Below, piece by piece: positions 7,506 to 63,897 of a stretch of 64,000 bases of DNA. A program made the position numbers and the translations under genes. Origin of the DNA: Antedon mediterranea. Its lineage: Eukaryota; Animalia; Echinodermata. The stretch's first letter is position 1, and the number at the start of each line of letters is the position of its first letter. The notes beneath the pieces were generated by a model that worked only from the letters and a program-made list of their open reading frames with translations, made no database searches and was not told the DNA's origin. The stretch covers positions 14,987,432 through 15,051,431 of the forward strand of contig NC_092679.1 of the NCBI RefSeq assembly GCF_964355755.1, read 5' to 3'.

Positions 7506-7547
7506 TTGCACTGATGAAGGGCTAGTGTTGCCCGAAAGCTCTGCTAA
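7506..7547 (+). ncRNA. Minimal type I hammerhead ribozyme within a Penelope-type pseudo-LTR fragment (about 7484-7675)
   Basis: GCA-CUGAUGA-a-GGGC(uaguguu)GCCC-GAAA-GC-UC-UGC: both core boxes, 4-bp stem II, palindromic AGCU in place of stem III; flanked by (TA)n. Confidence 0.75.
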
Positions 7548-8859
7548 CTTTTCTGGCTGTTTACTTTATCGTTTTGATTTAGCTTTTCGCTTTTTATTTT
7601 TGTATCTCCATTGAGATCCAGCCACTGATACCCACAGCATTGTCATTTTCTTTTCAGTAATTTGCCTTTGGATTTATATATTTTTTAAATATTTTTCTGA
7701 ACCATTCTCAGAATAAATTTCTGACTGTTTGGATTGCTTGTGTGCGTCATCAGAGAGTACGAAAAGCCGGCCACACACTGTGTTCGTGGAAAGCTCCGTC
7801 ATATGGGTCGTTGATTTGTCCATAATTATTGCATTTTGCCGGGATTCCACATCATTCATTATGCCGTAGTACCCTATTTATCTTCATTTCCTCCTTACGT
7901 CCGTATATTGGGCCCCCGATTGGGCCGAATTTCCGTAGTAATTACAGACGTTCCGAATTCTCAGTGTTCAATTTCTTTTTTTTCTGCAAATTGTGATCAT
8001 ATTTTCTTCTTTATCTCTGGGTGTGGTATTAAGTAACACTGTGTTGTACAGTTTATGTTTTTGTTGTTTGCTACTAAAGCCCGATATTTCCGGCGAACTA
8101 GAGATGCCATCATTTATTGTACCTGCGAGCATTTCACAAAATCCGCTTCCCTACAGGCCCCGCCATGGGGGACCTGTGGCGCAAATACTCGATATATAAC
8201 GCCTTAAACTCTTGGGAAAGAGTCCAGCGATCCGCCACTGATATTTCAGACAATAATTAAATTGGGCAAAAATAATTAAAAGAACAATACGTATGAAGCG
8301 TGTTAGAACTTAACTTAGAAATACACTAGCTTTATAAAATAAATGATTGCATGCAATACTTTTAAGACACACACTCACAGATTTACGGACACTGTTTCTC
8401 TATTTATTTTCGTTGTTGTTTATTAAAAGTGTCATACTTTTACTTTTTTTAGGCAAAAAATAATTATGACTATTTAAAGTAGGCATTATTGATTAAAACT
8501 AGGCAAGGCCCAGGCCTAGAATAGGCCTACTTACTTTTAATAAAGAAAGCGGGACCGAGTGCGATTTTTATTTTAGAATCGGAAGAAGATTCACCGAGAA
8601 AAGGGGTCAATCTTCATGAAATTGAGATCCGGCCGTTTCCTTTCTCCTGGTGCAATGCTGCAATATTATGTATTCCACTGTTATTTAGCAGGTAACATGT
8701 TAGGAAATTCTGGTAGCCCTTCCGTAATATAATATAAGCATTTTTTAAAATTTAAAACATGAAACAGTGCTTTGGTTATTTTTTTTTGCAATAAGCCTAC
8801 TGAAAGTGAAATTCGATGGAATTAACGCACGAGGACACATTGCAACCTACACATAATAC

Positions 8860-9465
8860 AAATGCTTGTGACCGCATACCTCTAGTATCATCCTATGAAT
8901 AAGAAGGTTATTAACATTGTCCGCGATAACTTTTCAATTTTGACTGAAGATAAATCCGCTACAAAAGATATTTTTCAAGAACCACCCATGATAGCTTACA
9001 GACGTGATCAAAGCATTAAAGACACTTTAGTTAAATCTAAATTACAAAACAAAGGTAATGAATCAACTGGAACATTCAAATGTAATAGAAATAGATGTTC
9101 GACATGTACGTTTCATGTTCAAACCAAATAGTAGGACCTTCTGGTAATTATGTTATCACAGATCGTATTACGTGCACCACTAGAAATCTAGTTTATTGTA
9201 TTTCGTGTACTAAATGTAATATGCTTTATATTGGTGAAACTAAACGCAGGTTAGGTGATAGGTTTGTAGAACATTTAAGGTCTATTAAACTAAAGACTCC
9301 CGGATTACCTGTAGCCACCCATTTTTGTAATAATGAGCATTCCCTTTCGGATATTACAATTTCTGGTGTTAAAGTATGTAATGGTTCTGAGACATCTCGT
9401 AGAATTATAGAAGAAAGAATAATTGTAAAGCTTGGCACTCTTGCCCCTACCGGCATAAATGTACA
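8860..9465 (+). mobile_element. 3' fragment of a Penelope-like element (Neptune-type), GIY-YIG endonuclease, frameshifted near 9125
   Basis: PPMIAYRR, CNRNRCSTC linker, then NLVYCISCTKC..YIGET.R.LGDRFVEH..VATHF..LGTLAPTGIN; no RT core present. Confidence 0.88.
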
Positions 9466-9487
9466 ATCTGGGAGAATGAGAAAAAGT

Positions 9488-10354: not shown

Positions 10355-11113
10355 TTTCATGGTATTGTTCAAACTCGATTGGATAGCGACTCTTTAACAC
10401 TCTCGGCGTGGTACGGCGGAACTATATATAAACAAATCAGGCAAAGAACATTAATTCTAAACCGCCCGGTATATATAAAAGACACCGGACCAACTACTAG
10501 TTATTCAACTACAAAAACAACATTTAATAGTGTATAATAGTATATTTTTATGTGTATGTATATATGTGTAATTTCGTTTTTATATTTTTATCCTAAATAT
10601 TTTATTGATGTTTCAATAAATTGCAGTACGCACTGAAACAGATGAAAAATTGACTTTTGATTTTATTACAGTACTCTATTTGCCTAGGCCTAACAAACGA
10701 TTTGCTGTCACATTAAAGAAGGTCAAATAGCGGACTTGTATTTATTTCAAGCTGAAGATCTCAACAACCCATAGTTAGAAAATAAACATTGTTTGGCTAC
10801 TCATTATTTATAGAAAGTTGTTGGGTTTCTATAGAAAAGTGAATGAAACTTTTCTATATCTATAGAAAATTCTATAGATTTCCTATAGAATTTGTTTTTA
10901 TAGAATTCTATAGTAATTTTTGTTAGGGTGATCAATAGAAATTTTTTCTGAGGATAAAGCATCTGCCGAAACAGATTGTAATAATATTGGAATCAATCAC
11001 AGATTTTCCAGTTCAGGAATTGTGAAGAATTGCCATTTATTATTGTTTGGCTGAGCTGGCTTTTAAATGGTCTGACCTTGTAAAAATTTTACTTTTACTT
11101 GGTTTTACACAAA

Positions 11114-14100
11114 ATGGCGTTTGAACAAGATAAAGGATGGGCTTATGTTGTTGCTCTAGCAAGCTGGTCAATTATAATATTCACAGATATGGCTTTCAGG
11201 TCTCCGGGAATATATTATACATATATGGCCGAGTATTTTGAAGCTTATGCTGTTAATGTTGGATTTGGTCTTTCTATGATCCGGACTCTCAATTTCTTAT
11301 TAGGTAAGACTGGTTGTAGGTTTAAATCAAGCAAATGCTTTTTTTGAACAGCATTTTCACGCATGCATTTCAGGAAATAGGTGTCATTATGACATTTACA
11401 TTTGCATTAGGTTATTCATTGTTTTAATATTATTATTCATTGTTTTCTGTGAATGGAACACCATCGTTAAACATTTATATTCAACTAGGACACTTAAGCC
11501 TATATATAACAGTGATAAAAGCAGAGGGAAGTAAATGTTTGTGAATATAGAATCTATGTTATTCCTTATGACCATTATTTACACACAATGCACAGCGGAC
11601 GGCCGGTTTCTGAAACAGGTTAACAGATTCTACGTGGGGACAAGCTATCTACGTGGGACAAGCTACGTGGTTTTCAGCTTACTGTGTAAATTGGCCTTTA
11701 CGGTAACCATAACCTACTTTATATAACGCAATAAGAAACCAATTCATATTTGGACACCATCTTTTTTTGGATTTTGAATCTTGTCATTTATAGGTGTGCT
11801 GGGTGCCATTTTGGTGGAAAGATCGAATTGCCGACTAGTTACATTTTTTAGTAGTCTGTTAATGATGTCTGGAACTTTTTTGATTTATATGTCAACAAGT
11901 TTCTACCAACTAATCATCGCATGTACACTTATTGGTTAGTTTAACATTTTCTTTCTCTAAAGCTCTGTCTACACTATCAAACTAGTTTTTGACAAAACAA
12001 AGTGTGATGTGCACAAATATGGCAGTGATATGCCCAAACATAGTAGTGATATGACATCATGATGTCCATACATTTTTTTGTCACATAAAGTTTGATGAAG
12101 ACAGAGCATAATATTCAACGTATATAAAAAGAAACTATTACTGACCTAGGCCTAGTTGGCTTTTGTTTTCCTGTCCTGTTATTATTGTTTTTTATTAGGT
12201 CAAATAAATAAATAAAATTATTGTTTTTCTATAATAAATAATTGGCAAAATGTTATTTTATGTCGTTTAATGTCGATCTTCTTACAAACATCACCTTAAA
12301 AGTGACATGAATTAAATTGCAATATGTCTGCTTCTTCTGAAATTATCATCGTCATGTTTCATTTTATGAAGACATGTAAAAAAAACTAATATGGCCACCT
12401 GAATTGAAAAGAAACACATTAAAAAGTGCGCATCACGCTTTTACATGCCTGATTTTCTCCCAAAATGCTCAGGCATTAATAATAATGTTACCTGGTATAC
12501 CAATATTTTCATTTTGAGGAATTAAAAAATTAATGTGAATAACTTGGATCAAATATTTTCACCTATATACTGAATATTATTTGAATTTGTTATAGCTCCC
12601 AGATATAAAGGTGACGCGGCCCCATATAACGTATTATGGAAGCTGTTAAATTATAAATGTTAATTCATGAGAACAAAAATTGACTATCGTCCAAAGTGAC
12701 GGGTCCACATCTCGCTAATTTAATTTCAGGAATTGGATTAAGTTTGGCGAATTATGTAAGCTACTATATCTTAGATGTTTACTTCAAACAGCACTTTGAA
12801 TTTGTAATATCAGTATTGCTGGTGATTAGAGGTATTGGTGCCATCATTTCAACACCAGTGACACAGGTAAACACAAGGTCACGGTGATCAAGTTTGTTTG
12901 TTTTTAAATTTTAAACCACAGATGGATGGATTTAGGAAGCAATCTGGACCCGGATCTAAATTAATACTTTACTAAAATTATAGTTCAGTCAATCTACAAT
13001 CTTTTTATTGTTTGTACTAATTATATGCCATACGTCAAAACTACAAGACGGATCTTAACGATTCTTTATCCTTTTATCTTTTTACTCTTGCCGGATGTTA
13101 CAACTCTTATATTACTTTTTGTGTTGGGCATCGTCTTCTTTTATTTGTAGGCCTATTTCATCATACATCTTTAGACGAAAGGTTGAATAAAAGTATAATG
13201 TTAGTCTATAGTAATAATCAAGCTAGAGATCTGTTAAAGACTGAAAATCTGCTAAAAAATGCTTTGATTTGTTTAAACAGGTAATGGTTATGGTGTACGG
13301 GTGGAAATCAGCTTTTCTTATTAATGCTGGCCTGTCATATCAGATTTGTGTTTGTGGCTCAGTTTTCAGAACTCCCAAAAAAACAATTAGGAATAAAGGC
13401 AACAACTCGAATATTTACAAACTTTGTCATTTTTCATTGTTTAAAAACAAAATGTTCCGAACTCTGCTAGTTGTATCATGTGTGCAAGCTGCGTCTGAAG
13501 GGATTATCCTAACCATGACAGACGATCTGGAAGAGCGTGGTGCATCGCTGTATTTAAGTCAATCAATTGGTATTATTTATGGCATTGGTAGTTTACTTGG
13601 AAGACCATTTCATTATGTTTTCAGCAAGTGTTTTACAACTGACTTACTTATCCACTTGGCAGTGTGTTTCCTTATCGCAACTTTTTCTACATTTATCAGT
13701 TGTGTATTCACAAGTGTGACGTCAGTGTTTTTGTACATCTTCATGTACAGTTTTTTTACTGGATGGATAGATGCGGTAAAACCATTATTTATGAAATATG
13801 AAATTGATGCTGATGAATTTGCCTATGGGTACGCATGGACATATGTTTTCTATGGCCTAGGATCATGTATAATAATTCCTATAACAGGTATGTAAGAACG
13901 TTTTTATTTTATTTTTAGATTTATTACAGCAGGCAAAATTGTTACAGTAGCAATATAAAATCTGTCCTCAGTAACAATCGTGTATAGTTTGTAGGTATAC
14001 TATATTTGGCGACAAACAGGATGGATAAACTCAAGATAAACCAACTGTTTCATTTTAAGTTTAAAGCTTTGTCTGCACTATCAAACTTTATTTGACAAAA

Positions 14101-15137
14101 AAAATGTGATGTGCCCATATATGGACATGATGATGTCATATCACTACCATATTTAGAAATACAACTACCATATTTTGGCACATCACACTTGTTTTGTCAC
14201 ATAAAGTTTGATAGTGTAGACAAAGCTTTAGGGAGTGGATTAGATGAGTCGACAGTTACGACCATAATACTAGGTCAGCTAAAAGCTACAAGCACACTTC
14301 CTAAAATTGATTATTCACCCTCTTGAAGTTCCACCTTACAGTAAGGGGACACCTGTCTTTTAGGACACCTGTCTTTTAGGACTCAACAAAGTTCCTATTA
14401 TGCTATAGCGTACGGTATACGTACATTTCGCCTCGGTTGGTCTCACATGAAATTGCCGCCGTCATGGGTGTCCGTGGGGAAATTCTAGTAATGTAACCAT
14501 AAAGGCCCATTTACACTAGGACGATAACGATCGACGATAAATAAACAAATATATTTATTTATACATAAAACAAACGAAATATAAAAACTTTTTATAGAAT
14601 AATCATTTATGATGTCTTTGATGAAAATGATATTTTCACACGTCCAATCAAATGACGTCATGATTAGTAAGAGCAATAATAATAATAATATCGTAACAAT
14701 TCAACGATGTTATTGTTTTTATTTATCATGACTTGATTTGAATTGTAAAAATATTATTTTTATCAAAGACAGCATAAATGATTATCTTATAGTTCTAGAA
14801 TAAAAACCTTTCTAATTTTTGTTTTGTTTTAAATCCAATGACATATTAAAAAGTTTATAACAATAAATAAGACAGGATGTTTGGTCCTTTTATGGTTTTT
14901 CATCAGCGCCATGAACAAAAGTGGATATTGGCTTGATGGAACTAAAATGATCAACAAGTATTTTATTTTACAGGGCATTATGTTTAAGAACTTTTGTATT
15001 TTTCAGGGTTACTTAGAGATTCAACTGGTTCTTACTGGGCATCAGAAGTATTATTTTTTGTGCTTAGTGGAATTGGACTCGGAATAGTTCTTAATGTTAT
15101 CTACCATAGAAGGATACATTACAAATTATTACAATAA
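11114..15137 (+). CDS. SLC16/monocarboxylate transporter-like MFS protein, copy 1 (401 aa); exons 11114-11303, 11794-11934, 12730-12866, 13281-13887, 15007-15137
   Basis: GT-AG exons in consistent phase; DKGWAYVV (cf. DGGWGWVV), YFKQH (cf. YFxKRR), YGWK, GLLRDSTGSY; multiple hydrophobic helices. Confidence 0.88.
14065..14227. mobile_element. Representative of an abundant 100-165 bp PIF/Harbinger-like MITE; other copies near 11961, 16068, 26635, 31878, 33891, 46927, 49007, 51014, 57343, 62758
   Basis: TIR consensus AGCTYTGTCTACACTATCAAACT, flanked by TAA/TTA. Confidence 0.75.
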
Positions 15138-15855
15138 TATCTTATTTAATTTATTATCATGCACTTTAAGAGCTCCACTTGATTTTCATTCTGAACCATT
15201 ATTTAAGTGAAATCAAATGTACTTAAAATCACTGATCCATTCATAACATTCAAATCTCTATTTTTATGTTCTTGAATTATTTTGTACAGCTACTAACATT
15301 AACAAATATAATTTTAGAAATCCACGTGAGATGCTTGTACCACTTCTTAGATTAACCAAATCTAAATACTGTATAAGCCTAACCTACTCAGTACCAACTC
15401 TGTGGAATGATTTAGATGATATACTTACTGGTTGTATTGTAAAACCGTAACAATTTTTAAGAAATGTATAAAGTATTTTTATTTGTCAAATTATCATGAG
15501 TAAAGATATAAATGTTCTCTGCATATATATATTTTGTTTCATACTTATATATTTGAAGTTTAAATATGGCGTTTACCTTTTTCCTTAATAAACTAATCCT
15601 AATATATTGTTTTATGAAGGGGCTGATTGAGACAAGTTTATTACTTCTAAACCAGATCCTAACCAAAAAAAAGGGGAAAATATTATGTTAAAATGTATGT
15701 TAAATAAAATATTTTTTTTTTTGGTTGAATAAATATTACGAAAAAATCCCAAAAAAGTGGTCATTGTATAATTTAAAGCTAGTGATTATAGGTCGTGGGT
15801 TCGAGAGTGGCACCTGAAAGCAATTTGCACCACTATGCTGGTGTTGATTCATAAA

Positions 15856-16001
15856 GTTTGGTTCCCACTAGGAGTCAACATAAGGACGTAGAAACAACTC
15901 AAGCGAATTGACCAATGACAAGCAGCAGCTCAAATAATCCATCGCTCGTGATTGGTCAAATAACATGCGTTACGCTTACTTCCTTGAGTGGAAACCAAGC
16001 A
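15856..16001. mobile_element. Short Harbinger-like MITE (also near 33679 and 50798)
   Basis: Imperfect TIR TTGGTTCCCACT / AGTGGAAACCAA with TAA flanks. Confidence 0.5.
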
Positions 16002-17732
16002 TAAATTTAATCCAATATACTCCTAAACAACAATAATTACTGTGTACATGTTCACTTTCTTATATTAAGCTCTGTCTACACTATCAAATATGGTAGTGAT
16101 ATTGCCAAATATGGCAGTGATATGACATGACACAAAAACTATGATTGTGTAGACAGAGATTTAGACGTTTAAAAAAAAAAATACACTATTATAAATTATG
16201 TGATGATTGTATAACTTATTTAAATGAATAAGCTTAGAAGAGATATCAGATTTTATAAATGTACACTGCTGTGTTCTTTATTACAACAATAAATATATAC
16301 TAAAAATCAAATCAAAGCAGACTACAAACAACATGTATTCTGTATAACTACTGTATATCAATTTATTTATAATATACTTTCACAATTTTTGTAGCATTAT
16401 TCTCCGCTGCCGCCTCTCAAAAAAATAAATAAAATTATGATTAGGGGTTCTGATGTATACACCTTCAGTGCCATAAATTCACAATTACAATATAGAATGT
16501 ATTTATATTTATCAGGCAATATAATAATGTCTGATTTTAATAAATATTAATAAGTTTAGAGAAACTATGTTATTGAGTGCTGTATGTGCCTAAAATTTTA
16601 GAAAAATATAAAAAGATACAACTTCATTTTTTACAATTGTTAGGCCTTGATCCCGCAATTAGTATAAGCATTTCAAAGTCTTGGATCCATCATGGATAAC
16701 CAACACCAGTGGCGTAACGCAGAGGCCTAAGGCCCCTGGTTTAGGAACGATAAGTGGCTCTCCAACACTGGATGCATCAGGTGTTTATAGCCTTTTTTGA
16801 CATACTTTAATGCTCAGGGCCTCCATAAGCCCCGGGCCCCTGGGTTTAGCCAGTGAGTGCTCATAGCCATTACGCCACGTGACCAACACCATTAACCTAT
16901 TCTGTGTTAAAAAACAACACTATTAATCTGTTACACTTAAATTATATTTCTTAATAAATATTGACTTAAGAATATATCAAGGTAATGACATTAGAACCTT
17001 TATTAAGGGGACACCTTACGGAACCAATAAAGTGTCTCCTTAATTGAGTTGATTTGTGTTGAAACATATATTGGCCTTTGTTTATTTTAAGAAAGTGTCC
17101 CCTTAATAGGTGTCTAAAAGGAGAAATTTTCAAATGCATAATTTAATAAATCTATGGTAATTATGTAAGATTGTAGATTTTGTTTTTGTAAATTGAAGTT
17201 TGAATTTAGATTTTAAAAATATTTTAAAGGTTTATTTTGAAATGTCTTATTCTTGTCTGTAATTTTCAAGTTTTAATTTTTTGCTTAAAGCATATTTCTA
17301 AATTATTAAAAATATTAAGCACATTACATTATTCAACAAACATATCTAAAAATATCATCTATCTAATCTAATCTTTAAAACAAAAATGCAGATATACATT
17401 TAAATATAAATATTATGTCAACCACATACAAAAAATGTTACATCTATTTGATGAGGTATACAGTAGAAGCCACATTAAAGAAACATTTTCCCTTATAGGA
17501 GTGTCCCCTGAATATGGGTTGGCCATAGTGTTAAACCATATATTTCAAAATATCACAGTAAAGTGTGGTCCTTTTAATATATAAGGGCGTCCCCTGGATA
17601 GGTTCTACTGTATTCATCTTTTTGTTCTTATAAATAATTATTACTTTAGTAATGATAGGAACACTGATTTTGTCCATCTTATATCTTCAGCCTTTTATTT
17701 CAGTTGCAAAATCTTGATAAATATTAACCTCT

Positions 17733-18114
17733 TCAACTAGTTTTCCATAAAAACAAACTAAAAAGAATGCTTTAATTTCAAATTTTAATATATCAAATAC
17801 AAAATATAGTTATCAATGCTAGTCATGCTATAATATGGTGTATGAGAATATCAGCATGAGGCAGAAATGTTCGATTTTCTCACTACCCACCCCAATTTCC
17901 CAGTAGTCATATTTTATTTTAATAGTATATTTAAAGCATCTTTGCCTCGTCTGTTTTTAACCTCTCGCTACGCCCTTGGCTTTTGAATTTTGTTTTGTTT
18001 GTTACATGCTTACCAGCAGTCATCGGCACCAGCGGTGATCAAGTAACGGTCATCAAATGTGAATTTTACATTAGTCACATGAGCTGAATGTCCAACATAC
18101 TTCTTATGTGGTGC
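17733..18114 (-). pseudogene. Duplicated last two exons of the EML5/6-like gene (18114-18014, 17757-17733)
   Basis: [41 protein letters not shown]; homologous to 53200-53100 and 52834-52810, splice sites intact. Confidence 0.88.
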
Positions 18115-18949
18115 CTAACAAAATAGATACATAAATTATGGTATAATTAAGTTATGGGTATTCTGACCAAGGCAATCCGACAACAGGAAACTGAACTCGC
18201 CTTATCAAGATAGGAACTCGTAACAGTCCTTTGATCTTGGGTCTGGCTGCGACAAATACCAACAGTACTGTACTATGTACATATTCTCAACAGAGCATGG
18301 TGTATGTTAAGGGGCATGGAACTGATCTTGTTGCAGCCACAGATAAACCCTTTGACCTCTGGGCTGAAGCTCAGCATCCTGTTTTTAAATTGCATTGTTC
18401 TGACCAATGTTGTTTTAAATGTTTTTAATTGGATTCTATGCTTTATATACCATTTTATAAATATTTATTGTGAGATAACCAATCAATGAGTGGGAATGCA
18501 AATTGTAACCCTACATATGATCAGCGTTATCTTGTCTAAGATTAAACAACATGCTTGTACTGATTGGAAGAATGATCTTGCACTAATATCTTCTCAATCA
18601 GACTATCAAATTATTATTTTTAAAAAACCCTGCCTAATTACTCTGGACACACCTTCTCTCTAGAAGGAGGGTTAGATTGTAGTTGCATTCTTACATATTT
18701 GTTTCCATACCAACCTGTAACAAATAATTAATGATAAAATAGATAACGAGTGTTCAAAATGTTTGAAATCGCGTCCACTACTCACTCACGCAATACTCAA
18801 ACGATTGTCGTATGCAAATAATTTAAGACATTAAAACAAAAATGATTCACAACTGTACTGTGTTCTCATGTATGTGGATTTCATGTTATATAATATTTTA
18901 GATAATTGATAGATAACAGATATGGCGACCTTTTTGAGGTCAAGGACAT

Positions 18950-21600: not shown

Positions 21601-23498
21601 ACCTCCAAACTGTTTTTTGTTGTCATGGAATGAAGTGGATTGATAATTACATTTTTATTTTGCCAATAACAATAATACCGTTTACATTTTTTTTTCATCG
21701 CTTAAAAAAATATTATATGATAAGCAATTTTGCATGTAAAAGAATAGGATTTTTCTTTACAAGTTTATAGATTGTTGAAAATCAAATTAAAACCTGGACA
21801 AAATACAGAAAAACAATAATAACCCTTTTCTGTAGAATGTAATAAATTACCATTCCCTAACATATACAGTAGTATCTGCATGAACATTCTAGAATAAGAG
21901 TGTTTTGATTTAAGAAACCATGTATAATTAATATAGGAACATTCCAGAAGTGCTATTAATAGAAACTGTAATCCAATAGAATAAGAAGTATAAGGAATGA
22001 TTTAGAAGGTTATGAACATATTGTATATAAGGGGAAGTATGACAATTGTAAGAAGGGAGAAGGATTTTTGATTGAAGCATTTATTTTGAAGAAGGTTGGA
22101 TTAGAGGTAGGATATTCGATTGTAAAAGTTATTGTGAAGCTGTTGTTTAAAGTGCTTACTGGATTGTTGAAAGTTGAAGTTGATTGAAATTAAAGCTTTG
22201 TTTTGAGTTATTTTACAACTTTGTGGATTATTGGTGTATACTTTTATGTCACAAGGGAGTTCCTAAAGTATTTTCAACCGCTCGGAAACATACGTAAAGG
22301 GAGTTCGTGACAAGAAACTCTATGAAATCTCTATAGAATTTTGATAGAGATTTTATTCAATCATTCTATAGAAAATCTATAAACGAATTCTATAGAATAT
22401 TTGATATAAATTCTATAAAATTATATTTATTTGATTCTATAGAACAAATTTGTAAGGAATATTAACATGAACCAATTATCATTGTGTACTTGAATTATAT
22501 CAACTTTTGCTTGTTTTATATCATCAAGTATTTTCATTTTTCATTGTTGGGAGTGGTTAATTTACTCTCTGGTTTTATTTTAACAAATGGTCATGGTCCA
22601 TGCATGTAGTGCCTTCTGGGGGATAGCTTCTAATTTTATTTGAAGAAAGGTGAATACTTTGAATCATGTACAGTCTTAGCCAAAGGCTGGTATACATAAG
22701 TAGTATTGTATTATTAACCTAGCTTACAAATACCATGAGTTACATAACATAAGAATCTATGCGTTTTTGGCCTAAATAGTAGTATGAGAATTAGGCCTAG
22801 CCTAGGCCAACAAGCCAGCCAAATTAAGGCCTATATATGGTGACTTGGGATTGGTTAGAGAAGCTAGGCCTAGCTAATTGAGAATTTAAATTGTTTTTTG
22901 CCTTCAAAATAAAAAAGACCTACTTGGCCTAAATAAAAACAACAACACGTTTGCAAGCCTATATCATGATATAAACAATTCTGTCTTTTCTTATTCTATT
23001 ATTTTATAGATCTCGCCATCGTTACCATTACATTATTATATAAAGGACCAAATTATACTGTAAAGCGGTATCCAAATGCTTCTGCTACTTTGCTGGACAG
23101 TCATTGGCCAACAAAGTAAAAGAGATGAACAAAACACCGAAGGTTAGCGTACAGGAATCAGCAGGAAGAAGTTACTGGATAGTTTTATGTTTGGTATATT
23201 TTATTGTACCTTGTCATTTACTTTAATTATATGTACATGTTATATATTATTTTATTAATTCTGTTATTCATTAAAACTCCAACTCATAACTGACAGTAAA
23301 GTGTAAGCTTTTGTGTAATTATTAGTTTTATATTTTTAATTCTAAATTTGTTATTTAAGATCCAAAACCTTGATCTTTTAATATATATATCTTTTGATAT
23401 ATTCCCTATTCCCACGTGTAAAGGTACAATTCCAAAACAATCCAGAATATAATATATTCTGGATATATATTATATATGTATATATATATATATCCAAT

Positions 23499-23543
23499 CT
23501 GCAGACAGTACTGTTTCGATCTTATTAGATCTCGTCAGTGCAG
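23499..23543 (-). ncRNA. Type I hammerhead ribozyme, retrozyme-like repeat A1
   Basis: CUGCA-CUGACGA-GAUCU(aaua)AGAUC-GAAA-CAG(ua)CUG-UC-UGCAG; GUC cleavage triplet. Confidence 0.88.
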
Positions 23544-23609
23544 CTCAGGTTTCGAAATGAAATGTACCGCAGAACTGGCACAATATATAGGCTGAGCCAG
23601 GTATGCGGG

Positions 23610-24448
23610 CCGCAATTTTTTTTTTCGTACATAAGTTGGGGACCCCACCTCATGAAACGTCACAAAACAAACATGAATAATTCATCAGTTAAATTTTCTT
23701 GTTCCGTGTGCACCCAAGCGTATAGCAACAAGAAGTGATTACACAAGCAAGTGCGGTACGATTCTGGGCCTATCTCCGCTGTTGTTGCGGCGTGCGATTT
23801 CATAGAAGAATAGCCGGGTTTTGTGTGGATTGTCGAAATAATCAGCCTTTAGTTTATGGTGTTTTTAATATTATAATTTATTACTAAAGAATTACGTGTT
23901 ACGTGTGGGTGTGTGTGACGTGTGTGTGTTAGGTATGACACAATCCGAGTACTATAAGTCAGCAAAATTAAACAATAAACATTACACAAAAATACATTTT
24001 TTATTCTCGTGGGTCTAATCTTCCCATCTCATGTGTTCATATACGCGCATTTTTAAAGTTCCTTTGAGTACATGCATATTGTTTGATAATAAAATAGCAG
24101 AATTAAAAAAATACAGTACACAAATTATACACATTCTTTATTCTTGTGGGTCTAAGCTTTCTTTGGGCTATGTCCAATGAATTACTACTTAGTTTAATGT
24201 CTTGCCTAGCTGTCGATTAGCGTCGACTCGACACATTTTGTGTGAAGAAGTGTGCGCGAAGGCAATCCCGTGAATTGACTTAGAATCCTAGGCCTACTGT
24301 AAAGTATCGTATCGCAGTTGTGTAATCACTTCTTGTTGCTATACGCTTGGGTGCAAACGGAACAACAAATATAACTGATGAATTATTCATGTTTATTTTG
24401 TGACGTTTCATGAGGGGTCCCCAAATTATGTACGAAAAAAAAAATCGC
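23610..24448. mobile_element. Long-TIR non-autonomous DNA element inserted in a retrozyme-like unit
   Basis: About 140-bp TIRs; TSD ATGCGGG (23603-23609 / 24449-24455); empty site at about 45053. Confidence 0.85.
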
Positions 24449-24622
24449 ATGCGGGACATGGTACATTGATTATGAACACATAGAGTGCAGAAGCTCAAAG
24501 AGCGTGCTTTGCAAAATGCTAATAGTATTCACAGCAAAAATGCACCGTTTCGAAATGAGTGCTCCACAAAACAACATACTATATATGAATATAGCAGAAA
24601 GTAGAGGAGCGTAATATCCAAT

Positions 24623-24667
24623 CTGCAGACAGTACTGTTTCGATCTTATTAGATCTCGTCAGTGCAG
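24623..24667 (-). ncRNA. Type I hammerhead ribozyme, repeat A2
   Basis: Identical to A1. Confidence 0.88.
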
Positions 24668-24903
24668 CTCAGGTTTCGAAATGAAATGTACCGCAGAACT
24701 GGCACAATATATAGGCTGAGCCAGGTTTGCGGGACATGGTACAGTGATTATGAACACAAAGAGTGCACAAGCTCAACGAGCGTGCTTTGCAAAATGCTAA
24801 TAGTATTCACAACAAAAATGCACCGTTTCGAAATGAAGAGTGTTCTACAAAACAACATACTATATATGAATATAGCAGAAAGTAGAGGAGCGTAATATCC
24901 AAT

Positions 24904-24950
24904 CTGCAGAGACAGTACTGTTTCGATCTTATTAGATCTCGTCAGTGCAG
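24904..24950 (-). ncRNA. Type I hammerhead variant, repeat A3
   Basis: 281 bp from A2; extra UC after the GUC triplet. Confidence 0.75.
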
Positions 24951-25092
24951 CTCAGGTTTCGAAATGAAATGTACCGCAGAACTGGCACAATATATAGGCT
25001 GAGCCATGTATACGCGATTATGAGATCATGTTCCGAATATGAGCACTGTTTCTATAATTTACAGTATGATTTATATATAATTTACACAGTGC

Positions 25093-25276
<184 letters not shown>

Positions 25277-25782
25277 ACACCGGACCAACTACTAGTTATT
25301 CAACTACAAAAACAACATTTAATAGTGTATAATAGTATATTTTTATGTGTATGTATATATGTGTAATTTTGTTTTTATATTTTTATCCTAAATATTTTAT
25401 TGATGTTTCAATAAATTGCAGTACGCACTGAAACAGATGAAAAATTGACTTTTGATTTTATTACAGTACTCTATTTGCCTAGGCCTAACAAACGATTTGC
25501 TGTCACATTAAAGAAGGTCTAATAGCGGACTTGTATTTATTTCAAGCTGAAGATCTCAACAACCCATAGTTAGAAAATAAACATTGTTTGGCTACTCATT
25601 ATTTATAGAAAGTTGTTGGGTTTCTATAGAAAAGTGAATGAAACTTTTCAATATGTATTCAATCACAGATTTTCCAGTTCAGGAATTGTGAAGAATTGCC
25701 ATTATTATTATTGTTTGGCTGAGCTGGCTTTTAAATGGTCTGACCTTGTTAAAAATTTTACTTTTACTTGGTTTTACACAAA

Positions 25783-28700
25783 ATGGCGTTTGAACAAGAT
25801 AAAGGATGGGCTTATGTTGTTGCTCTAGCAAGCTGGTCAATTATAATATTCACAGATATGGCTTTCAGGTCTCCGGGAATATATTATACATATATGGCCG
25901 AGTATTTTGAAGCTTATGCTGTTAATGTTGGATTTGCTCTTTCTATGATCCGGACTCTCAAATTCTTATTAGGTAAAACTGGTTGTAGGTCAAAAACTTT
26001 AAATCAAGCAAATGCTTTATTGAACAGCATTTTCATGCAAATAGGTGTCATTATGACATTTACATTTGCATTAGGTTATTCATTGTTTTAATATTATTAT
26101 TCATTGTTTGCTGTGAATGGAACACCATCGTTAAACATTTATATTCAACTAGGACACTTACGCCTATATATAACAGTGATAACAGCAGAGGGAAGTAAAT
26201 GTTTGTGAATATAGAATCTATGTTATTCCTTATGACCATTTACACACAATGCACAGCGGACGGGTGGTTTCTGAAACAGGTTAACAGATTCTACGTGGGG
26301 ACAAGCTATCTACGTGGGACAAGCTACGTGGTTTTCAGCTTACTGTGTAAATTGGCCTTTACGGTAACCATAACCTACTTTATATAACGCAATAAGAAAC
26401 CACTTCATATTTGGACACTATCTTTTTTTGGTCCTGCTACCGGAATTTTGAATCTTGTCATTTATAGGTGTGCTGGGTGCCATTTTGATGGAAAGATGGA
26501 GTTGTCGACTAGTTACATTTTTTAGTAGTCTGTTAATAATGTCTGGAAGTTTTTTGATTTATTCGTCAACAAGTTTCTACCAACTAATCATCGCATGTAC
26601 ACTTATTGGTTAGTTTAACATTTTCTTTCTGTAAAGCTCTGTCTACACTATCAAACTAGTTTGACAAAAAAAAGTGTGATGTGCACAAATATGGTAGTGA
26701 TATGCCCAAACATAGTAGTGACATCATGATGTCCATATATGGGCACATCACACTTTTTTGTCACATAAAGTTTGATGAAGACAGAGCATAAACGTCAAGT
26801 TTTTTCTCTAGCAATTCAAAAGGGTTTTGCTGTTAGTAATGATAGAACCATGAAAGAAAGAGAAGCATTCACTAAGTTAAAAGGTGAATTAAAAACGCGA
26901 TTAAATGCAGGTGAGAAAGACATAGTTATCCGAAGTGGGAAGATTGTGAAGCTTTTTCGTTCCCAATAAAGAAAATAAAAACAGAAAGTTCTCTAATTTA
27001 AAAGAAAGTACGTTTTCCAATCAGAAATTTAACTTTTGGTACTCAAATTGTGATGGTTTTCTAAATAAGAAGTCAGAGTTACTTTCCCGTTTGGTTTCAG
27101 AAAAAGTTGATTTTATTGCATTGACAGAGATTTTACCAAAGCATTGTTTGTACCCGCCACTGATAAATGAATTTCGTGTCCAAGGTTACCAAGCATTTTT
27201 TTCGAATGAGGATTTTACTTCTGGTCGTGGTGTTTTAATTTATGTCAGAAATGGAATTTCAGTTTCTCAAATTTTCTTTAAGAAGAATAAGTTTGTAGAG
27301 TCAGTTTGGGTTAGAGTAAAAGAAGTAAAAACGGATCTTTTATTAGGTTGTGTTTACCGTAGCCCGACTTGTAGTATGGATAATAATATCAAGCTGAACT
27401 CATTGTTCCGTGAAGTATATAAATCATCTTTTTCTGATTTAATCGTTGTCGGCGATTTTAACTATAAAAGTATTAACTGGGAATTAAATTGTGTGTCTTC
27501 GGAAGATGGAGATTCCAGCAGAAGTTTCTTTGACACCATCAACGATCTATTTTTAATTCAACACGTTATGGAACCTACTAGATACAGAGAAGGCGAAACA
27601 CCCAATGTTTTGGATCTGGTTTTTACAGACAAAGAGAATACTATAAATGGCATTATGCAGTCTCCACCACTGGGTAAAAGCGACCATATGGTGTTACAAT
27701 TTTCATTGGATCTTGTAAGAGATGACAGAATTGAACCAAATATTCGAAGTTACAGGCATGGTAACTATGATTTGCTGCGCGAGAAAATTGGTTTGGTAGA
27801 TTGGGATGTGGTTTTCAATGACAAATCAGGTATTCAATCGTGGGACGAATTCGAGCATATTCTTGCGAAGAATATTGATGAGTGTATCCCGATGAGGAAG
27901 GTTTGCCACGGAAGAAAACCTCTTTGGATGAACAAAAAAATTGAAAAGCAGATTGCCAAAAAGAATAAATGTTGGAAACAGTATGTAAAGGCCAAGAGAA
28001 AACAAAAAGTATGTGTGTCAGCAAAATGGTCGAAGTTTGTCCAAGTAAGAAATCAAACAGTAGATCTGATTCGATGTAGTAAATCTGACTTCGAAAATAA
28101 AATAGCAATTGAGATCAAATCTAATGAAAAGTCTTTTTGGAGGTATCTCAGTTCTCAGATCAATATAAAGTCTGGTATACCCAACTTAACTGATAGTAAT
28201 GGAAGGCATGTGTCTGATGACAAGGATAAGGCTGAGTTGCTAAACACGTTTTTTAGTAGTGTATTTGTCGATGAAAATTTTTCGAATGTACCGGCTATTG
28301 ATGACATTTCAGAGGATTTTTTATCTCAAGTTGACTTTCCTTGTGACGAAATCTTAAATATTTTATCAACGTTGAATATTACTAAAACAGCTGGTCCTGA
28401 TGGTATTCACCCACGCATCTTAGTCGAACTAAAGGATATCATTTGCTATCCCCTCCATATTATTTTTACGAAATTGTTTCAAGAAGGAGCCGTCCCTAAT
28501 AGTTGGAAACGGGCTACAGTGGTACCGATTTTAAAAAAAGGAGTGAAGTCTGACCCAAGCAACTATAGACCTGTGAGTTTAACTTCGGTAGTTGGTAAAA
28601 TTATGGAGAGAATTATCAGGAAGGAATTATTGGACTTTCTTGAACATCACTCACTTATTTGTTATGAGCAATTTGGTTTCCGGCAAGGTCGTTCCTGTGC

Positions 28701-31700
28701 TTTACAATTACTTGATGTTCTTGAAAACTGGTTTTCTTATTTTGATAATCAGGATTGTTTTGATTGTATCTACCTTGACTACAAGAAGGCTTTCGATAGT
28801 GTGCCTCATCATAGACTCCTTCTGAAAATGAGTGCATTGGGTATTAGAGGTAAACTTCTAAACTGGTTTCAAGAATTTCTTAACGATAGACAACAACGGG
28901 TTAGTGTCAATGGATGTGTTTCAGATTGGGCTGATGTTCGTAGTGGTATCCCGCAAGGAAGCGTCGTTGGACCTGTTCTTTTCATTATGTTTATAAATGA
29001 TTTACCTTCTGTTATTTCTTCCTCTGTACGCATGTTTGCAGATGATACTAAATTGTATAGAGTAGTTAACACTGTGAATGATGCTCAAGTTCTACAAGAA
29101 GATTTAGAGAAAGCATGTGACTGGTCTGACAAATGGCAATTACCTTTTAACGAGGGTAAGTGCAAAGTAATGCACTTTGGGAAGAAAAACAACAAACATC
29201 TGTATGCCATGCGTGGTTTCTTATTGAATGAAGTTGATCATGAAAAAGACCTCGGTGTTACTATTGACTCTAAACTTGTTTTTAATGTACATGTGGCAGA
29301 TGTAGCAATGAGAGCAAATCGGAAGTTGGGCATGGTATATCGAGCTTTCAAGTTTTTAAATATGGATGGGTTTCTTCGTTTATATAAAGCTATTATTCGT
29401 CCGACCTTGGAATACTGCAACGTTGTTTTTAACTCGCTACATTGTAAGGAGGAAGACCTATTGGAAAAAGTCCAAGAACGTGCCACCAAGCTTATTTTTT
29501 CCATTCGTCATTTACCTTATTCAGAAAGGCTGAAAATTCTCAACCTACCTACTCTCGCATACAGAAGGCAAAGAGCTCATTTGATACAGATTTTTAAAAT
29601 TTTACATGGAGTGGATAGTATTTCTGCTGATTCTTTTTTTGAGCGTGATGAAGATGTTAGAACACGTGGTCATTCTTTTAAATTAAAATTTAAGTTCTCA
29701 CGCACAAATTGGATGAGGGACTCATTTGGTCGAAAAGCTATTATATTATGGAATTCGTTATCGGAGGATGTAGTAGCTTCAAGATCAACCAATCAATTTA
29801 AGTCCGGTCTTGAACGGGCATGGTCCAACCACCCTCTTAAATTTGCGCCATATTCAAGAGTTGATGTAATTATCAAGAGGGGCTTATAGGCATAGCCTAG
29901 CCTCGACTCCGGACCCAGCATTGCTGAGCTCCGGAAACAAGTAAACAAGTAAACAAGTAATATTCAACGTATATAAAAAGAAACTATTACTGACCTAGGC
30001 CTAGTTGGCTTTTGTTTTTCCTGACCTGTTATTATTGTTTTTTATTTGGTCGAATAAAAAATTAAAGGATTGTTTTTCTATACTAAATAATTGAAAAAAT
30101 GTCGATCTTCTCACAAAGATCACCTTAAAAGTAACAGGAATTATATTGCAATATATAGACCATTATCTTCTGAATTTATCATCGTCATGTTTCATTTATG
30201 AAGACATGTAAACAAAACTAATATGGCCACCTGAATTGAAAAGAAACACATTAAAAAGTGCGCATCTCGCTTTTACATGCCCGATTTTCTCTCCAAATGC
30301 TCAGGCATTAATAATAATAATGTAACCTGGTATACCAATATTTTCATTTTGAGGAATTAAAACATAAAAAATGTGAATAACTTGGATCAAATATTTTCAC
30401 CTATAAACTGAATATTATTTGAATTTGTTATAGCTCTCAGATTTTAAAGGTGACGTATTATGGAAGCTGTTAAAGTATAAATGTTAATTCATGAGAACAA
30501 AAATTGACTATCGTCCAATGTGACGGGTCCACATCTCGCTAATTTAATTTCAGGAATTGGATTAAGTTTGGCGAATTGTGTAAGCTACTATATCTTAGAT
30601 GTTTACTTCAAACAGCATTTTGAATTTGTAATATCAGTATTGCTGGTGATTAGAGGTATTGGTGCCATCATTTCAACACCAGTGACACAGGTAAACACAA
30701 GGTCACGGTGATCAAGTTTGTTTGTTTTTAAATTTTAAACCACAGATGGATGGATTTAGGAATCAATCTGGACCCGGATCTCAATTAATACTAAAATTAT
30801 AGTTCAGTCAATATACAATCTTTTTATTATTTGTACTAATTATATGCCATATGTCAAGGGCTACAAGACGGATCTTAACGATTCTTTATCCTTTTCTCTT
30901 TTTACTCTTGCCGGAAATTACAAGTCTTATATTACTTTTTGTGTTGGGCATCGTCTTCTTTAATTTGTAGGCCTATTTCATCATACATCTTTAGACGAAA
31001 GGTGGAATAAAAGTATAATGTTAGTCTATAGTAATAATCAAGCTAGAGATCTGTTATATATAAATATGCTAACAACTGCTTTGATTTGTTTAAACAGATA
31101 GTGGTTATGTTGTACGGATGGAAATCAGCTTTTCTTATTAATGCTGGCCTGTCATATCAGATTTTTGTTTGTGGCTCAGTTTTCAGAACTCCCAAAAAAA
31201 CAAATAGGAATAAAGACAACTTGAATATTTACAAACTTTGTCATTTTTCATTGTTTAAAAACAAAATGTTCCAAACTCTGCTGGTTGTATCATGTGTGCA
31301 AGCTGCGTCTGAAGGGATTATCCTAACCATGACAGACGATCTGGAAGAGCGTGGTGCATCGCTGTATTTAAGTCAATCAATTGGTATTATTTATGGCATT
31401 GGTAGTTTACTTGGAAGACCATTTCATTATGTTTTCAACAAGTGTTTTACAACTGACTTACTTATCCACTTGGCAATGTGTTTTCTTATCGCAACTTTTT
31501 CTACATTTATCAGTTGTGTATTCACAAGTGTGACGTCAGTGTTTTTGTACATCTTCATGTACAGTTTTTTTACTGGATGGATAGAATCGGTAAAACCATT
31601 ATTTATGAAATATGAAATTGATGCTGATGAATTTGCCTATGGGTATGCATGGACATATGTTTTCTATGGCCTTGGATCATGTATAATAATTCCTGTAACA

Positions 31701-32960
31701 GGTACGTAAGAACGTTTTTATTTATTTTTAGATTTATTACAGCAGGCAAAATTGTTACAGTAGCAATATAAAATCTGTCCTCAGTAACAATCGTGTATAG
31801 TTTGTAGGTATACTACATTTGGCGACAAACAGGATGAATAAAGTCAAGATAAACCAACTGTTTCAGTTTAAGTTTAAAGCTTTGTCTACACTATCAAACT
31901 TTATTTGACAAAAAAATGTGATGTACCCATATATGGACATGATGATGTCATATCACTACCATATTTAGAAATACAACTACCATATTTGAGCACATCACAC
32001 TTGTTTTGTCACATAAAGTTTGATAGTGTAGACAAAGCTTTAGGGAGTGGATTAGATGAGTCGACAGTTACGACCATAATACTAGGTCAGCTAAAAGCTA
32101 CAATCACACTTCCTAAAATTGATTATTCACCCTATTGAAGTTCCACCTTACAGTAAGGGGACACTTGTCTTTTAGGGCACCTGTCTTTTAGGACTCAACA
32201 AAGTTCCTCTTATGCTATAGCCCCGGCTATAGCGTACGGTATACGTACATTTCGCCTCGGTTGGTTTCACATGAAATTGCCGCCGTCATGGGTGTCCGTG
32301 GGGAAATTCTAGTAATGTAACCATAAAGGCCCATTTACACTAGGACGATAACGATCGACGATAAATAAACAAATATATTTATTTATACATAAAACAAACG
32401 AAATATAAAAACTTTTTATAGAATAATCATTTATGATGTCTTTGATGAAAATGATATTTTCACACGTCCAATCAAATGACGTCATGATTAGTAAGAGCAA
32501 TAATAATTATAATATCGTAACAATACAACGATGTTATTGTTTTTATCATGACTTGATTTGAATTTTAAAAATATTATTTTTATCAAAGACAGCATAAATG
32601 ATTATCCTATTATATATTTCTAGAATGAAAACCTTTCTAATTTTTTTTGTTTTAAATCCAATGACATATTAAAACGTTTATAACAATAAATAAGACAGGA
32701 TGTTTGGTCCTTTTATGGTTTTTCATCAGCGCCATGAACAAAAGTGGATATTGGCTTGATGGAACTAAAATGATCAACAAGCATTTTATTTTACAGGGCA
32801 TTATGTTTAAGAACTTTTGTATTTTTCAGGGTTACTTAGAGATTCAACTGGTTCTTACTGGGCATCAGAAGTATTATTTTTTGTGCTTAGTGGAATTGGA
32901 CTCGGAATAGTTCTTAATGTTATCTACCATAGAAGGATACATTACAAATTATTACAATAA
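25783..32960 (+). CDS. SLC16/MCT-like transporter, copy 2 (400 aa); exons 25783-25972, 26468-26608, 30554-30690, 31098-31701, 32830-32960
   Basis: Intact frame and splice sites; sense-oriented CR1 in intron 2. Confidence 0.85.
26792..29957 (+). mobile_element. 5'-truncated CR1 LINE (end of ORF1 plus intact ORF2)
   Basis: Absent at the homologous sites near 12110 and 47082; 3' tail of AACAAGTA octamers; ORF1 tail SNDRTMKERE..IRSGKIV; only a TAA micro-duplication. Confidence 0.93.
26950..29889 (+). CDS. CR1 ORF2, APE endonuclease + reverse transcriptase (frame open from 26950, no ATG before the endonuclease)
   Basis: YSNCDG, LTE, GDFN, LDLV, SDH; NYRPVSLTS, DYKKAFD, GIPQGS, FADD, TRGH. Confidence 0.92.
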   Translation, partial: SFFVPNKENKNRKFSNLKESTFSNQKFNFWYSNCDGFLNKKSELLSRLVSEKVDFIALTEILPKHCLYPPLINEFRVQGYQAFFSNEDFTSGRGVLIYVRNGISVSQIFFKKNKFVESVWVRVKEVKTDLLLGCVYRSPTCSMDNNIKLNSLFREVYKSSFSDLIVVGDFNYKSINWELNCVSSEDGDSSRSFFDTINDLFLIQHVMEPTRYREGETPNVLDLVFTDKENTINGIMQSPPLGKSDHMVLQFSLDLVRDDRIEPNIRSYRHGNYDLLREKIGLVDWDVVFNDKSGIQSWDEFEHILAKNIDECIPMRKVCHGRKPLWMNKKIEKQIAKKNKCWKQYVKAKRKQKVCVSAKWSKFVQVRNQTVDLIRCSKSDFENKIAIEIKSNEKSFWRYLSSQINIKSGIPNLTDSNGRHVSDDKDKAELLNTFFSSVFVDENFSNVPAIDDISEDFLSQVDFPCDEILNILSTLNITKTAGPDGIHPRILVELKDIICYPLHIIFTKLFQEGAVPNSWKRATVVPILKKGVKSDPSNYRPVSLTSVVGKIMERIIRKELLDFLEHHSLICYEQFGFRQGRSCALQLLDVLENWFSYFDNQDCFDCIYLDYKKAFDSVPHHRLLLKMSALGIRGKLLNWFQEFLNDRQQRVSVNGCVSDWADVRSGIPQGSVVGPVLFIMFINDLPSVISSSVRMFADDTKLYRVVNTVNDAQVLQEDLEKACDWSDKWQLPFNEGKCKVMHFGKKNNKHLYAMRGFLLNEVDHEKDLGVTIDSKLVFNVHVADVAMRANRKLGMVYRAFKFLNMDGFLRLYKAIIRPTLEYCNVVFNSLHCKEEDLLEKVQERATKLIFSIRHLPYSERLKILNLPTLAYRRQRAHLIQIFKILHGVDSISADSFFERDEDVRTRGHSFKLKFKFSRTNWMRDSFGRKAIILWNSLSEDVVASRSTNQFKSGLERAWSNHPLKFAPYSRVDVIIKRGL

Positions 32961-44804: not shown

Positions 44805-44948
44805 TTAAGATCCAAAACCTTGATCTTTTAATATATATATCTTTTGATATATTCCCTATTCCCACGTGTAAAGGTACAATTCCAAAACAATCCAGAATAT
44901 AATATATTCTGGATATATATTATATATGTATATATATATATAGCCAAT

Positions 44949-44993
44949 CGGCAGACAGTACTGTTTCGATCTTATTAGATCTCGTCAGTGCAG
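44949..44993 (-). ncRNA. Type I hammerhead ribozyme, repeat B1
   Basis: Core as A1; one stem I mismatch. Confidence 0.82.
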
Positions 44994-45229
44994 CTCAGGT
45001 TTCGAAATGAAATGTACCGCAGAACTGGCACAATATATAGGCTGAGCCAGGTATGCGGGACATGGTACAGTGATTATGAACACAAAGAGTGCACAAGCTC
45101 AACGAGCGTGCTTTGCAAAATGCTAATAGTATTCACAACAAAAATGCACCGTTTCGAAATGAAGAGTGTTCTACAAAACAACATACTATATATGAATATA
45201 GCAGAAAGTAGAGTAGCGTAATATCCAAT

Positions 45230-45276
45230 CTGCAGAGACAGTACTGTTTCGATCTTATTAGATCTCGTCAGTGCAG
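45230..45276 (-). ncRNA. Type I hammerhead variant, repeat B2
   Basis: 281 bp from B1; same UC insertion as A3. Confidence 0.75.
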
Positions 45277-45331
45277 CTCAGGTTTCGAAATGAAATGTAC
45301 CGCAGAACTGGCACAATATATAGGCTGAGCC

Positions 45332-63897
<18,566 letters not shown>

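What the first reader, a model, noticed from the sequence alone, without database searches (positions are those of the whole stretch)
23491..25010. Retrozyme-like 281-bp tandem repeats, each carrying a type I hammerhead ribozyme
Seen: three minus-strand hammerheads (23499, 24623, 24904) with CUGACGA/GAAA core, 5-bp stems I and II, and a GUC site. They are spaced by a non-coding unit of about 280 bp, with (TA)n tracts at both ends of the array. Stem III lies in the palindrome ACAGUACUGU, which allows dimeric folding. Known: metazoan non-LTR retrozymes are short hammerhead tandem repeats that yield circular RNAs and are thought to be mobilised by Penelope-like elements. Inference: this is such a family, possibly undescribed, producing about 281-nt linear or circular RNA; Penelope remnants occur in the same window.
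Basis: partly seen in the sequence, partly recalled or inferred. Interest (0 to 1): 0.85.

Follow-up and report, generated by a model that had tools for sequence, protein, structure and literature searches.

The report
Feather-star retrozyme with fixed insertion end
This is a 281-base non-coding repeat with a hammerhead ribozyme fold that recurs at many TA-repeat sites, mostly as shortened copies that stop just past the ribozyme; it is likely a new feather-star family of the known animal retrozymes, probably copied by a Penelope-type retrotransposon, and the copies in this window are likely too damaged to make the predicted small RNA circle.

Summary
The hammerheads are real, but the anatomy needs correcting. 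The window holds five type I hammerheads in two duplicated arrays; two are intact (23499, 24623). The one at 24904 has two extra bases at the cut site. The first spacing is 1124 bp, not 281, because an 837-bp MITE sits in that unit. So this locus probably cannot release a 281-nt circle. The host is likely a crinoid. Contigs from public runs show a multi-copy family, mostly 5'-shortened copies that end 10-14 nt past the cut site in AT-rich or (TA)n flanks; tandem units are a minority. Two related families from metagenome contigs share stem I, covary in stem II and end at the equivalent place. Every such copy spans an intact cut site, so the template was uncut or re-ligated RNA. This fits target-primed copying by a Penelope (Neptune-type) enzyme that starts right behind the folded hammerhead. 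Cleavage, expression and circles were not testable. Verdict: new member of the non-LTR retrozymes, with a useful insertion footprint.

The parts
23490..25011 (-). Array A: about 100-nt 5'-shortened piece, unit X, unit Y (with MITE), 14-nt tail
23499..23543 (-). Hammerhead A1, intact type I; C17 at 23504
24623..24667 (-). Hammerhead A2, intact type I; C17 at 24628
24904..24950 (-). Hammerhead A3 with a UC duplication right after C17 (24911); predicted not to be cut
24628..24910 (-). Unit X, 283 nt cut site to cut site (281 without the extra UC); 40% GC; no long ORF; folds at z about -3.7 to -4
23504..24627 (-). Unit Y, 1124 nt including the MITE; differs from X by 8 substitutions and one 3-nt deletion, all within 120 nt
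23612..24448 (.). MITE, 837 bp, 154-bp terminal inverted repeats, 9-bp target duplication (23603-23611 / 24449-24457, one mismatch); Mutator-like by these features (own knowledge)
   Evidence: high depth
23490..23503 (-). 14-nt tail: 3' strand of stem I plus AUAU that merges with the TA run; the family's fixed 3' end
23447..23489 (.). TA-rich target, left flank
25012..25110 (.). Piece of a second, unrelated high-depth repeat, head-to-head with array A, absent from array B
25113..25274 (.). (TA)81 microsatellite
44940..45332 (-). Array B in the duplicated block: one unit (2 differences from X), hammerhead B1 (C17 44954) with a stem I mismatch, B2 (C17 45237) with the same UC duplication; TA runs on both sides
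8844..9481 (+). Penelope-like remnant: RT-EN linker with a CX4CXXC motif and GIY-YIG endonuclease (Neptune/Nematis type); no DNA similarity to the repeat
7508..7544 (+). Minimal Penelope-type hammerhead 25 nt behind a (TA)n run; unrelated in sequence to the repeat's unit

Best explanation
This is one insertion, later duplicated, of a multi-copy non-coding hammerhead repeat family (likely a non-LTR retrozyme of a crinoid) that is probably pasted into TA microsatellites by a borrowed Penelope-type reverse transcriptase-endonuclease. Shown: type I hammerhead sequence, 281-283-nt unit, many genomic copies with one fixed 3' end 10-14 nt past the cut site, variable 5' ends, AT-rich or (TA)n flanks, a tandem minority. 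Inferred: source arrays elsewhere are transcribed; the enzyme nicks (TA)n; the nicked end pairs with the AUAU just behind stem I and primes copying; copying crosses the cut site at once, so the template is an uncut multimer or a re-ligated circle, not the freshly cleaved linear monomer; most runs stop within one unit and a few continue into tandem copies. Predicted: the hammerhead is weak as a monomer and cuts as a double hammerhead. The window's copies are likely passengers: three of five motifs are altered and the one unit between intact motifs holds a MITE.
For: Fixed end: on a one-unit stretch, summed contig depth falls from 269,801 (24616-25) to 21,004 (24596-605) in run X1, from 113,808 to 7,397 in X6 and from 217,990 to 0 in X16, and decays gradually toward the 5' side in X1 and X6. 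Loose ends at 24612-24616 total 31 contigs in X1, 30 in X6, 30 in X16 and 2 in X15, with mixed flanks that are AT-rich in X1, X6 and X16 (24 of 216 rows shown); 19 more in X5 and 2 in X7. Tandem joints exist in X1 and X6 (tables 5 and 5c). Organism label E holds only the 60-nt hammerhead module with a different body. Related families: 119 of 128 pattern matches in 122 loci form two families; stem I pairs at 4/5 or better in 114 of 119 and stem II at 4/4 in 112 of 119, with stem II read GAUC/GAUC, GUCC/GGAC or GGCC/GGCC. In the larger family 76 of 93 scorable distinct copies end after the site, 63 of 76 match the tandem template for exactly 8-9 nt, and 56 of 76 have a TA-type microsatellite within 30 nt against 55 of 3477 background windows. 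Double hammerhead is the lowest-energy dimer, -36.8 against -27.8 kcal/mol for two monomers. A Neptune-type remnant and a Penelope-type minimal hammerhead beside (TA)n are in the window. Literature: internal initiation on uncut RNA and AT-rich nicking by a Penelope enzyme (PMC11167929); microsatellite bias proposed for the Neptune zinc-finger linker (PMC8557442); retrozyme-Penelope kinship (10.64898/2026.07.22.740005).
Against: No partner element sharing sequence with this unit was found: the window's remnant has none, and the one locus with a Penelope ORF upstream on the same strand (L053) has its own hammerhead-like motif and is set off by microsatellites. Summed contig depth is not a copy number, and assemblies under-represent tandem arrays, so the monomer excess is rough. 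No compensatory stem change is listed within this family itself; covariation rests on three families, in 12 rows that I chose, with stem III fixed by my search pattern. The monomer's lowest-energy fold is not the active one (first stem I pair probability 0.33). Only 1 of 9 Xenopus retrozyme dimers cleaved in vitro (10.64898/2026.07.22.740005). In the Anolis Penelope element the start site is not homologous to the nicked DNA (PMC11167929), unlike the AUAU anchor proposed here.
Confidence: 0.72

Rival explanations
1. The unit is the terminal repeat (pLTR) of an autonomous Penelope-like element; the dispersed copies are its 5'-truncated ends and the tandem units are local amplifications.
For: Fixed 3' end with 5' truncation is the Penelope footprint (PMC8557442, PMC11167929). 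24 of 57 Xenopus retrozyme families matched known elements, nearly all Penelope-like (10.64898/2026.07.22.740005).
Against: Units join head to tail with no ORF. No shared upstream loose end is listed for X1 or X6 (24 of 216 rows shown). The motif is a canonical hammerhead with a full stem III, whereas metazoan Penelope repeats mostly carry minimal ones (PMC4209133), like the one at 7508. Among the fetched loci of the related families only L053 has a long Penelope ORF nearby, and it is not linked; L026 has a short same-strand hit 1.5 kb downstream.
Confidence: 0.15
2. The repeat is a SINE-like passenger of an ordinary LINE (CR1/L2/RTE type), with the TA run as its tail.
For: Intact-looking endonuclease-RT ORFs are in the window, and LINE insertions are also 5'-truncated.
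Against: Array B has TA runs on both sides and internal units lack the run, so TA is the target, not a tail. Head-to-tail units and a start inside the RNA fit Penelope better (PMC11167929). No similarity of the unit to other window sequence.
Confidence: 0.08
3. It is a DNA-level satellite spread by unequal exchange, with an old hammerhead carried along.
For: Units X and Y differ and array B lacks one unit, so DNA-level exchange has acted here.
Against: Many unrelated flanks share one end point; the hammerhead module outlasts the body across organism labels and families.
Confidence: 0.05

Closest known systems
Animal non-LTR retrozymes (Cervera and de la Pena 2020, PMC7229834, parts 2-4 of 6 read, supplement not readable; Li, Clavereau and Pollet 2026, 10.64898/2026.07.22.740005, parts 1-3 of 5 read)
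   Same: Type I hammerhead per unit, unit within 150-450 bp, GC under 50%, non-coding, self-paired unit, palindromic short stem III, Penelope-like elements in the same genome.
   Different: Likely crinoid host (the word echinoderm does not occur in the 2020 main text). Mostly sub-unit copies with a fixed 3' end in (TA)n; the 2020 main text has no hit for microsatellite or truncation, and the 2026 preprint counts only near-full-length monomers. Circles and cleavage were shown for coral, mussel and axolotl, not here.
Penelope-like elements with endonuclease (Neptune/Nematis; Anolis Poseidon PAc) (PMC11167929 parts 1-2 of 4; PMC8557442 12 passages; PMC4209133 parts 1-2 of 4)
   Same: Start inside the RNA downstream of a hammerhead, uncut template, AT-rich or microsatellite target, 5' truncation, partial tandems.
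   Different: No ORF. Start is 10-14 nt past the cut site (PAc starts 111-118 nt into its ORF, the cut being 26 nt in). No second start site or inverted arm of the same unit was seen.
Terminon/Athena 3' ends (PMC6431247, 6 passages)
   Same: Hammerhead fold followed at once by a short stretch matching the target repeat.
   Different: There the target is the telomere overhang and no endonuclease is used; here the match is only about 4 nt to internal (TA)n.
Rfam Hammerhead_HH9 (RF02275, clan CL00010)
   Same: Best-scoring model; same type I core and similar stem I.
   Different: 27.7-32.5 bits against a gathering score of 52.

Membership tests
Type I hammerhead ribozyme | CUGANGA and GAAA cores, NUH site, stems I-III in type I order | tested here: met
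   Met for A1 and A2; A3 and B2 have two extra bases at the site, B1 a stem I mismatch
Type I hammerhead ribozyme | Covariation in stems | tested here: met
   Stem II: 2 of 4 pairs change on both sides across three families; score 0.155, 1 of 500 shuffles as high; stem I nearly invariant; stem III fixed by the query. None listed within the family
Type I hammerhead ribozyme | Self-cleavage | not testable with these tools
   Needs in vitro transcription
Rfam Hammerhead_HH9 | Score at or above gathering threshold 52 | tested here: not met
   27.7-32.5 bits. Three lower-scoring clan matches were left out by the tool, so no Hammerhead_1 score was seen
Non-LTR retrozyme | Head-to-tail repeats of 150-450 bp, one type I hammerhead per unit | tested here: met
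   281-283-bp unit in the window; tandem joints in runs X1 and X6
Non-LTR retrozyme | Non-coding, GC below 50% | tested here: met
   GC 0.40; longest ATG frame 36 aa sense, 69 aa antisense in the doubled unit
Non-LTR retrozyme | Stable self-paired unit RNA | tested here: met
   Circular fold -71.8 kcal/mol, z -3.65; linear z -3.98, 0 of 200 shuffles
Non-LTR retrozyme | Many genomic copies | tested here: met
   618, 362, 5 and 241 contigs laid on one unit from four runs, with many different flanks; no whole genome held
Non-LTR retrozyme | No LTR, primer-binding site or polypurine tract | tested here: inconclusive
   No LTR layout in the window self-comparison; primer site and purine tract not searched for
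Non-LTR retrozyme | Expressed as unit-length linear and circular RNA | not testable with these tools
   Needs raw RNA reads or northern blots
Active retrozyme locus (Li et al. 2026 definition) | Two consecutive tandem units with complete hammerheads | tested here: not met
   A1 and A2 are complete but 1124 bp apart across a MITE; Tandem Repeats Finder lists no such array. Applies to this locus, not to the family
pLTR of an autonomous Penelope-like element | Unit flanks an RT plus GIY-YIG ORF | tested here: inconclusive
   Not so in the window or in L053; rest of the genome not available

The most novel reading that the evidence does not exclude
The folded hammerhead is itself the mobilisation signal of these elements: a Penelope-type enzyme docks on the uncut ribozyme and primes on a few AU bases right behind stem I that pair with a nicked (TA)n site, a miniature, chromosome-internal version of the Terminon hammerhead-plus-telomere anchor. 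This would explain why a roughly 60-nt module stays nearly unchanged across crinoid-like hosts and distant families while the body is replaced, and why hammerhead-only copies spread. The UC duplication at the 5'-most cut site may record a template jump between cleaved RNAs.
Probability: 0.3. Interest if true: 0.65.

Novelty: new member of a known kind. Interest (0 to 1): 0.4.

Why it matters
How animal retrozymes are copied into genomes is still a proposal. A start point fixed just behind stem I in three families gives a concrete substrate for an in vitro priming test with a Penelope protein, and shows that the copied RNA is intact at the cut site. It also extends the class to (probably) crinoids and suggests that surveys built on tandem repeats miss most copies. 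The element class itself is known, and this locus is a damaged copy.

Tried and rejected
No whole genome is held, so no direct copy count or empty-site search. The look-up of sequencing runs: 20 of 22 rows hold part of the stretch, six organism labels; no RNA holder listed. Run X9 is only guessed to be RNA and was not used for expression. Strict hammerhead pattern in metagenome contigs: 0 hits; relaxed pattern in viral contigs: 0. 9 of 128 relaxed matches lack proper stems and were set aside. My first end classification mis-scored TA runs as tandem continuation and was redone. L053 as proof of pLTR origin: rejected. Two-armed insertion of the same unit, as earlier scan notes report elsewhere: no strand-change joint listed, 25012-25110 has no significant match to the unit (best E 0.14), and 1 back-to-back plus 2 facing inverted hits in the fetched loci. 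UC duplication as a family trait: not listed at 1% share in four runs and in 0 of 119 related matches; plain slippage is not excluded. Host-gene read-through: the EML6 coding exons found lie above 53 kb and the MFS start at about 25783 points away, so no sense host transcript was identified. Pol III A/B boxes: none on the ribozyme strand. The bacterial promoter scan is irrelevant. MFS homolog search gave nothing. Earlier-findings look-ups by sequence and by place were empty.

Full report
Observation. A strict type I pattern finds two of them (23499-23543, 24623-24667) and nothing in 100 dinucleotide shuffles of the window. Rfam places all three closest to Hammerhead_HH9, below its gathering score. 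C17 lies at 23504, 24628 and 24911, and at 44954 and 45237 in a second array inside a block about 99% identical over several kb. Whether that block is a true duplication or a second haplotype placed in tandem cannot be told here; the two differ by several insertions.

Corrections. The motifs at 24911 and 45237 carry a UC duplication directly after C17. In co-folding the extra bases pair onto G12-A13 of the partner's core, so this site is predicted not to be cut. The motif at 44954 has a stem I mismatch. The 1124-bp spacing is one unit plus an 837-bp MITE with 154-bp inverted ends and a 9-bp target duplication; array B shows the empty site. Thus array A, if transcribed, would release an 1124-nt piece, and array B probably none. 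The right TA run of array A is set off by a piece of another repeat that array B lacks.

Host and setting. An EML6 exon matches Anneissia japonica at 91% and the other 119 listed of 310 hits at 78% or less; the Penelope endonuclease remnant also matches it best, at 71%. The host is therefore likely a crinoid (inference). The arrays lie about 0.7 kb upstream of copies of an MFS transporter gene, on the other strand.

Fold. The 281-nt unit folds better than shuffles, as a circle (z -3.65) and linear (z -3.98). The single hammerhead's best fold pairs the core with stem III, while two copies fold into the double hammerhead with a 10-bp shared stem III, 9 kcal/mol better than two monomers. This agrees with the dimer model for short palindromic stem III (PMC4209133, parts 1-2 of 4 read), though invertebrate retrozyme motifs often cut as monomers (PMC7761336, passages).

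The family. Twenty of 22 listed runs, under six organism labels, hold part of the repeat. On one permuted unit, 618, 362, 5 and 241 contigs were laid from runs X1, X6, X15 and X16. Depth peaks on the hammerhead, drops more than tenfold just past 24614 and decays gradually toward the 5' side. Loose ends pile up at 24612-24616 (31, 30, 2 and 30 contigs among the 24 of 216 rows shown), with mixed flanks that are AT-rich in three of the four runs. Joints back to the start of the unit show tandem copies, including length variants. Run X16 holds only 24612-24677, with another sequence upstream. Listed variants inside the motif fall at G12, G8, N7 and loop II, mostly C-to-T or G-to-A at CpG; none in stems I-III. 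Depth is summed over contigs and is no copy number, so the excess of short copies is qualitative.

Related families. Of 128 matches, 113 form a family with stem II GGCC/GGCC and 241-246-bp tandems, 6 a family with GUCC/GGAC that is closest to the window motif, and 9 are noise. Hosts were not determined; the unit length fits the 220-245 bp reported for coral (PMC7229834). Stem II covaries across the three families, on 12 rows that I picked. In the large family 76 of 93 scorable distinct copies stop after the site (3 of 96 were cut by contig ends), 63 of them after exactly 8-9 matching bases, and 56 run into a TA-type microsatellite, against 1.6% in background. Their 5' reach runs from 40 to 241 nt, with 17 of 73 under 50 nt, close to the 5' edge of the motif. 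The six copies of the small family turn AT-rich about 12-14 nt after the site (read by eye).

Mechanism. A copy that ends beyond the cut site must come from RNA that is continuous there: uncut precursor or re-ligated circle (inference from the sequence). This matches the Anolis Penelope protein, which nicks AT-rich DNA, starts inside the RNA and does not need hammerhead cleavage (PMC11167929, parts 1-2 of 4). The window holds a Penelope remnant with the zinc-finger linker proposed to drive microsatellite bias in Neptune elements (PMC8557442, passages) and a minimal hammerhead next to (TA)n, but neither shares sequence with the unit, so the partner is unidentified. Units X and Y differ at nine places, all within 120 nt (chance 0.008 under uniform decay), and at several of them one or both differ from the majority letter in run X1. 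That sits badly with one circle copied twice and then decaying evenly; a mixed linear multimer, template jumps or later conversion all remain open.

Comparison and novelty. The element meets the sequence features of non-LTR retrozymes (PMC7229834, parts 2-4 of 6; 10.64898/2026.07.22.740005, parts 1-3 of 5). Among the rows listed (20 of 39; 15 of 88), no paper holds both hammerhead and crinoid terms; searches listed no title or abstract opening on retrozyme insertion ends. The library lacks most subscription papers and Repbase or Dfam were not searchable, so this is weak evidence of novelty. The hammerhead-plus-anchor layout is described for Terminons at telomeres (PMC6431247, passages). Earlier AI notes of this scan report retrozymes in TA microsatellites in other genomes, often two-armed; these are leads only, and the two-armed form was not seen here.

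Verdict. Real feature; new family of a known class; this locus likely inactive. Interest 0.4, mainly for the shared start point behind stem I, which makes the Penelope-mobilisation model directly testable.

Noticed in passing
window 9465-10416: Three tandem 372-423-bp repeats, each with a tRNA-Asp(AUC)-like head on the minus strand, directly after the Penelope remnant; one holds a (TA)15 run. May be a tRNA-bearing mobile repeat.
   Followed up: no
window 25012-25110: Piece of a second high-depth repeat ending in (TA)81; 41 contigs in X1 and 19 in X5 continue past 25012 with one shared sequence. No match to the unit or elsewhere in the window. Identity unknown.
   Followed up: partly
window 7483-8290: Minimal Penelope-type hammerhead at 7508-7544 just after a (TA)n run, followed by several hundred bases of unidentified sequence.
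   Followed up: partly
window 10470-18863, 25265-36736, 45439-53378: MFS transporter gene in three copies (92-99% identical), differing by insertions: an endonuclease-RT LINE with an open 979-aa frame at 26950-29889 in one copy only, and an insert at 44253-44804 in one block only.
   Followed up: no
L033, L079, L081: After the cut site the 4-mer GTTA is repeated 7 times before the TA run (twice in 30 other matches, three times in 3); the tandem template has it once. Could be telomerase-like stuttering at the start of copying, or a pre-existing microsatellite. The three may be one site.
   Followed up: partly
L120, L121: The animal-type hammerhead repeat with TA runs occurs in a bacterial metagenome-assembled genome, most likely host contamination.
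   Followed up: no
L053:200-2480: Frameshifted Penelope ORF with zinc-finger linker and its own hammerhead-like motif, 500 bp upstream of a retrozyme array across microsatellites; both seem to use the same target.
   Followed up: yes
window 2222-5284: Open 1020-aa endonuclease-RT LINE frame on the minus strand.
   Followed up: no
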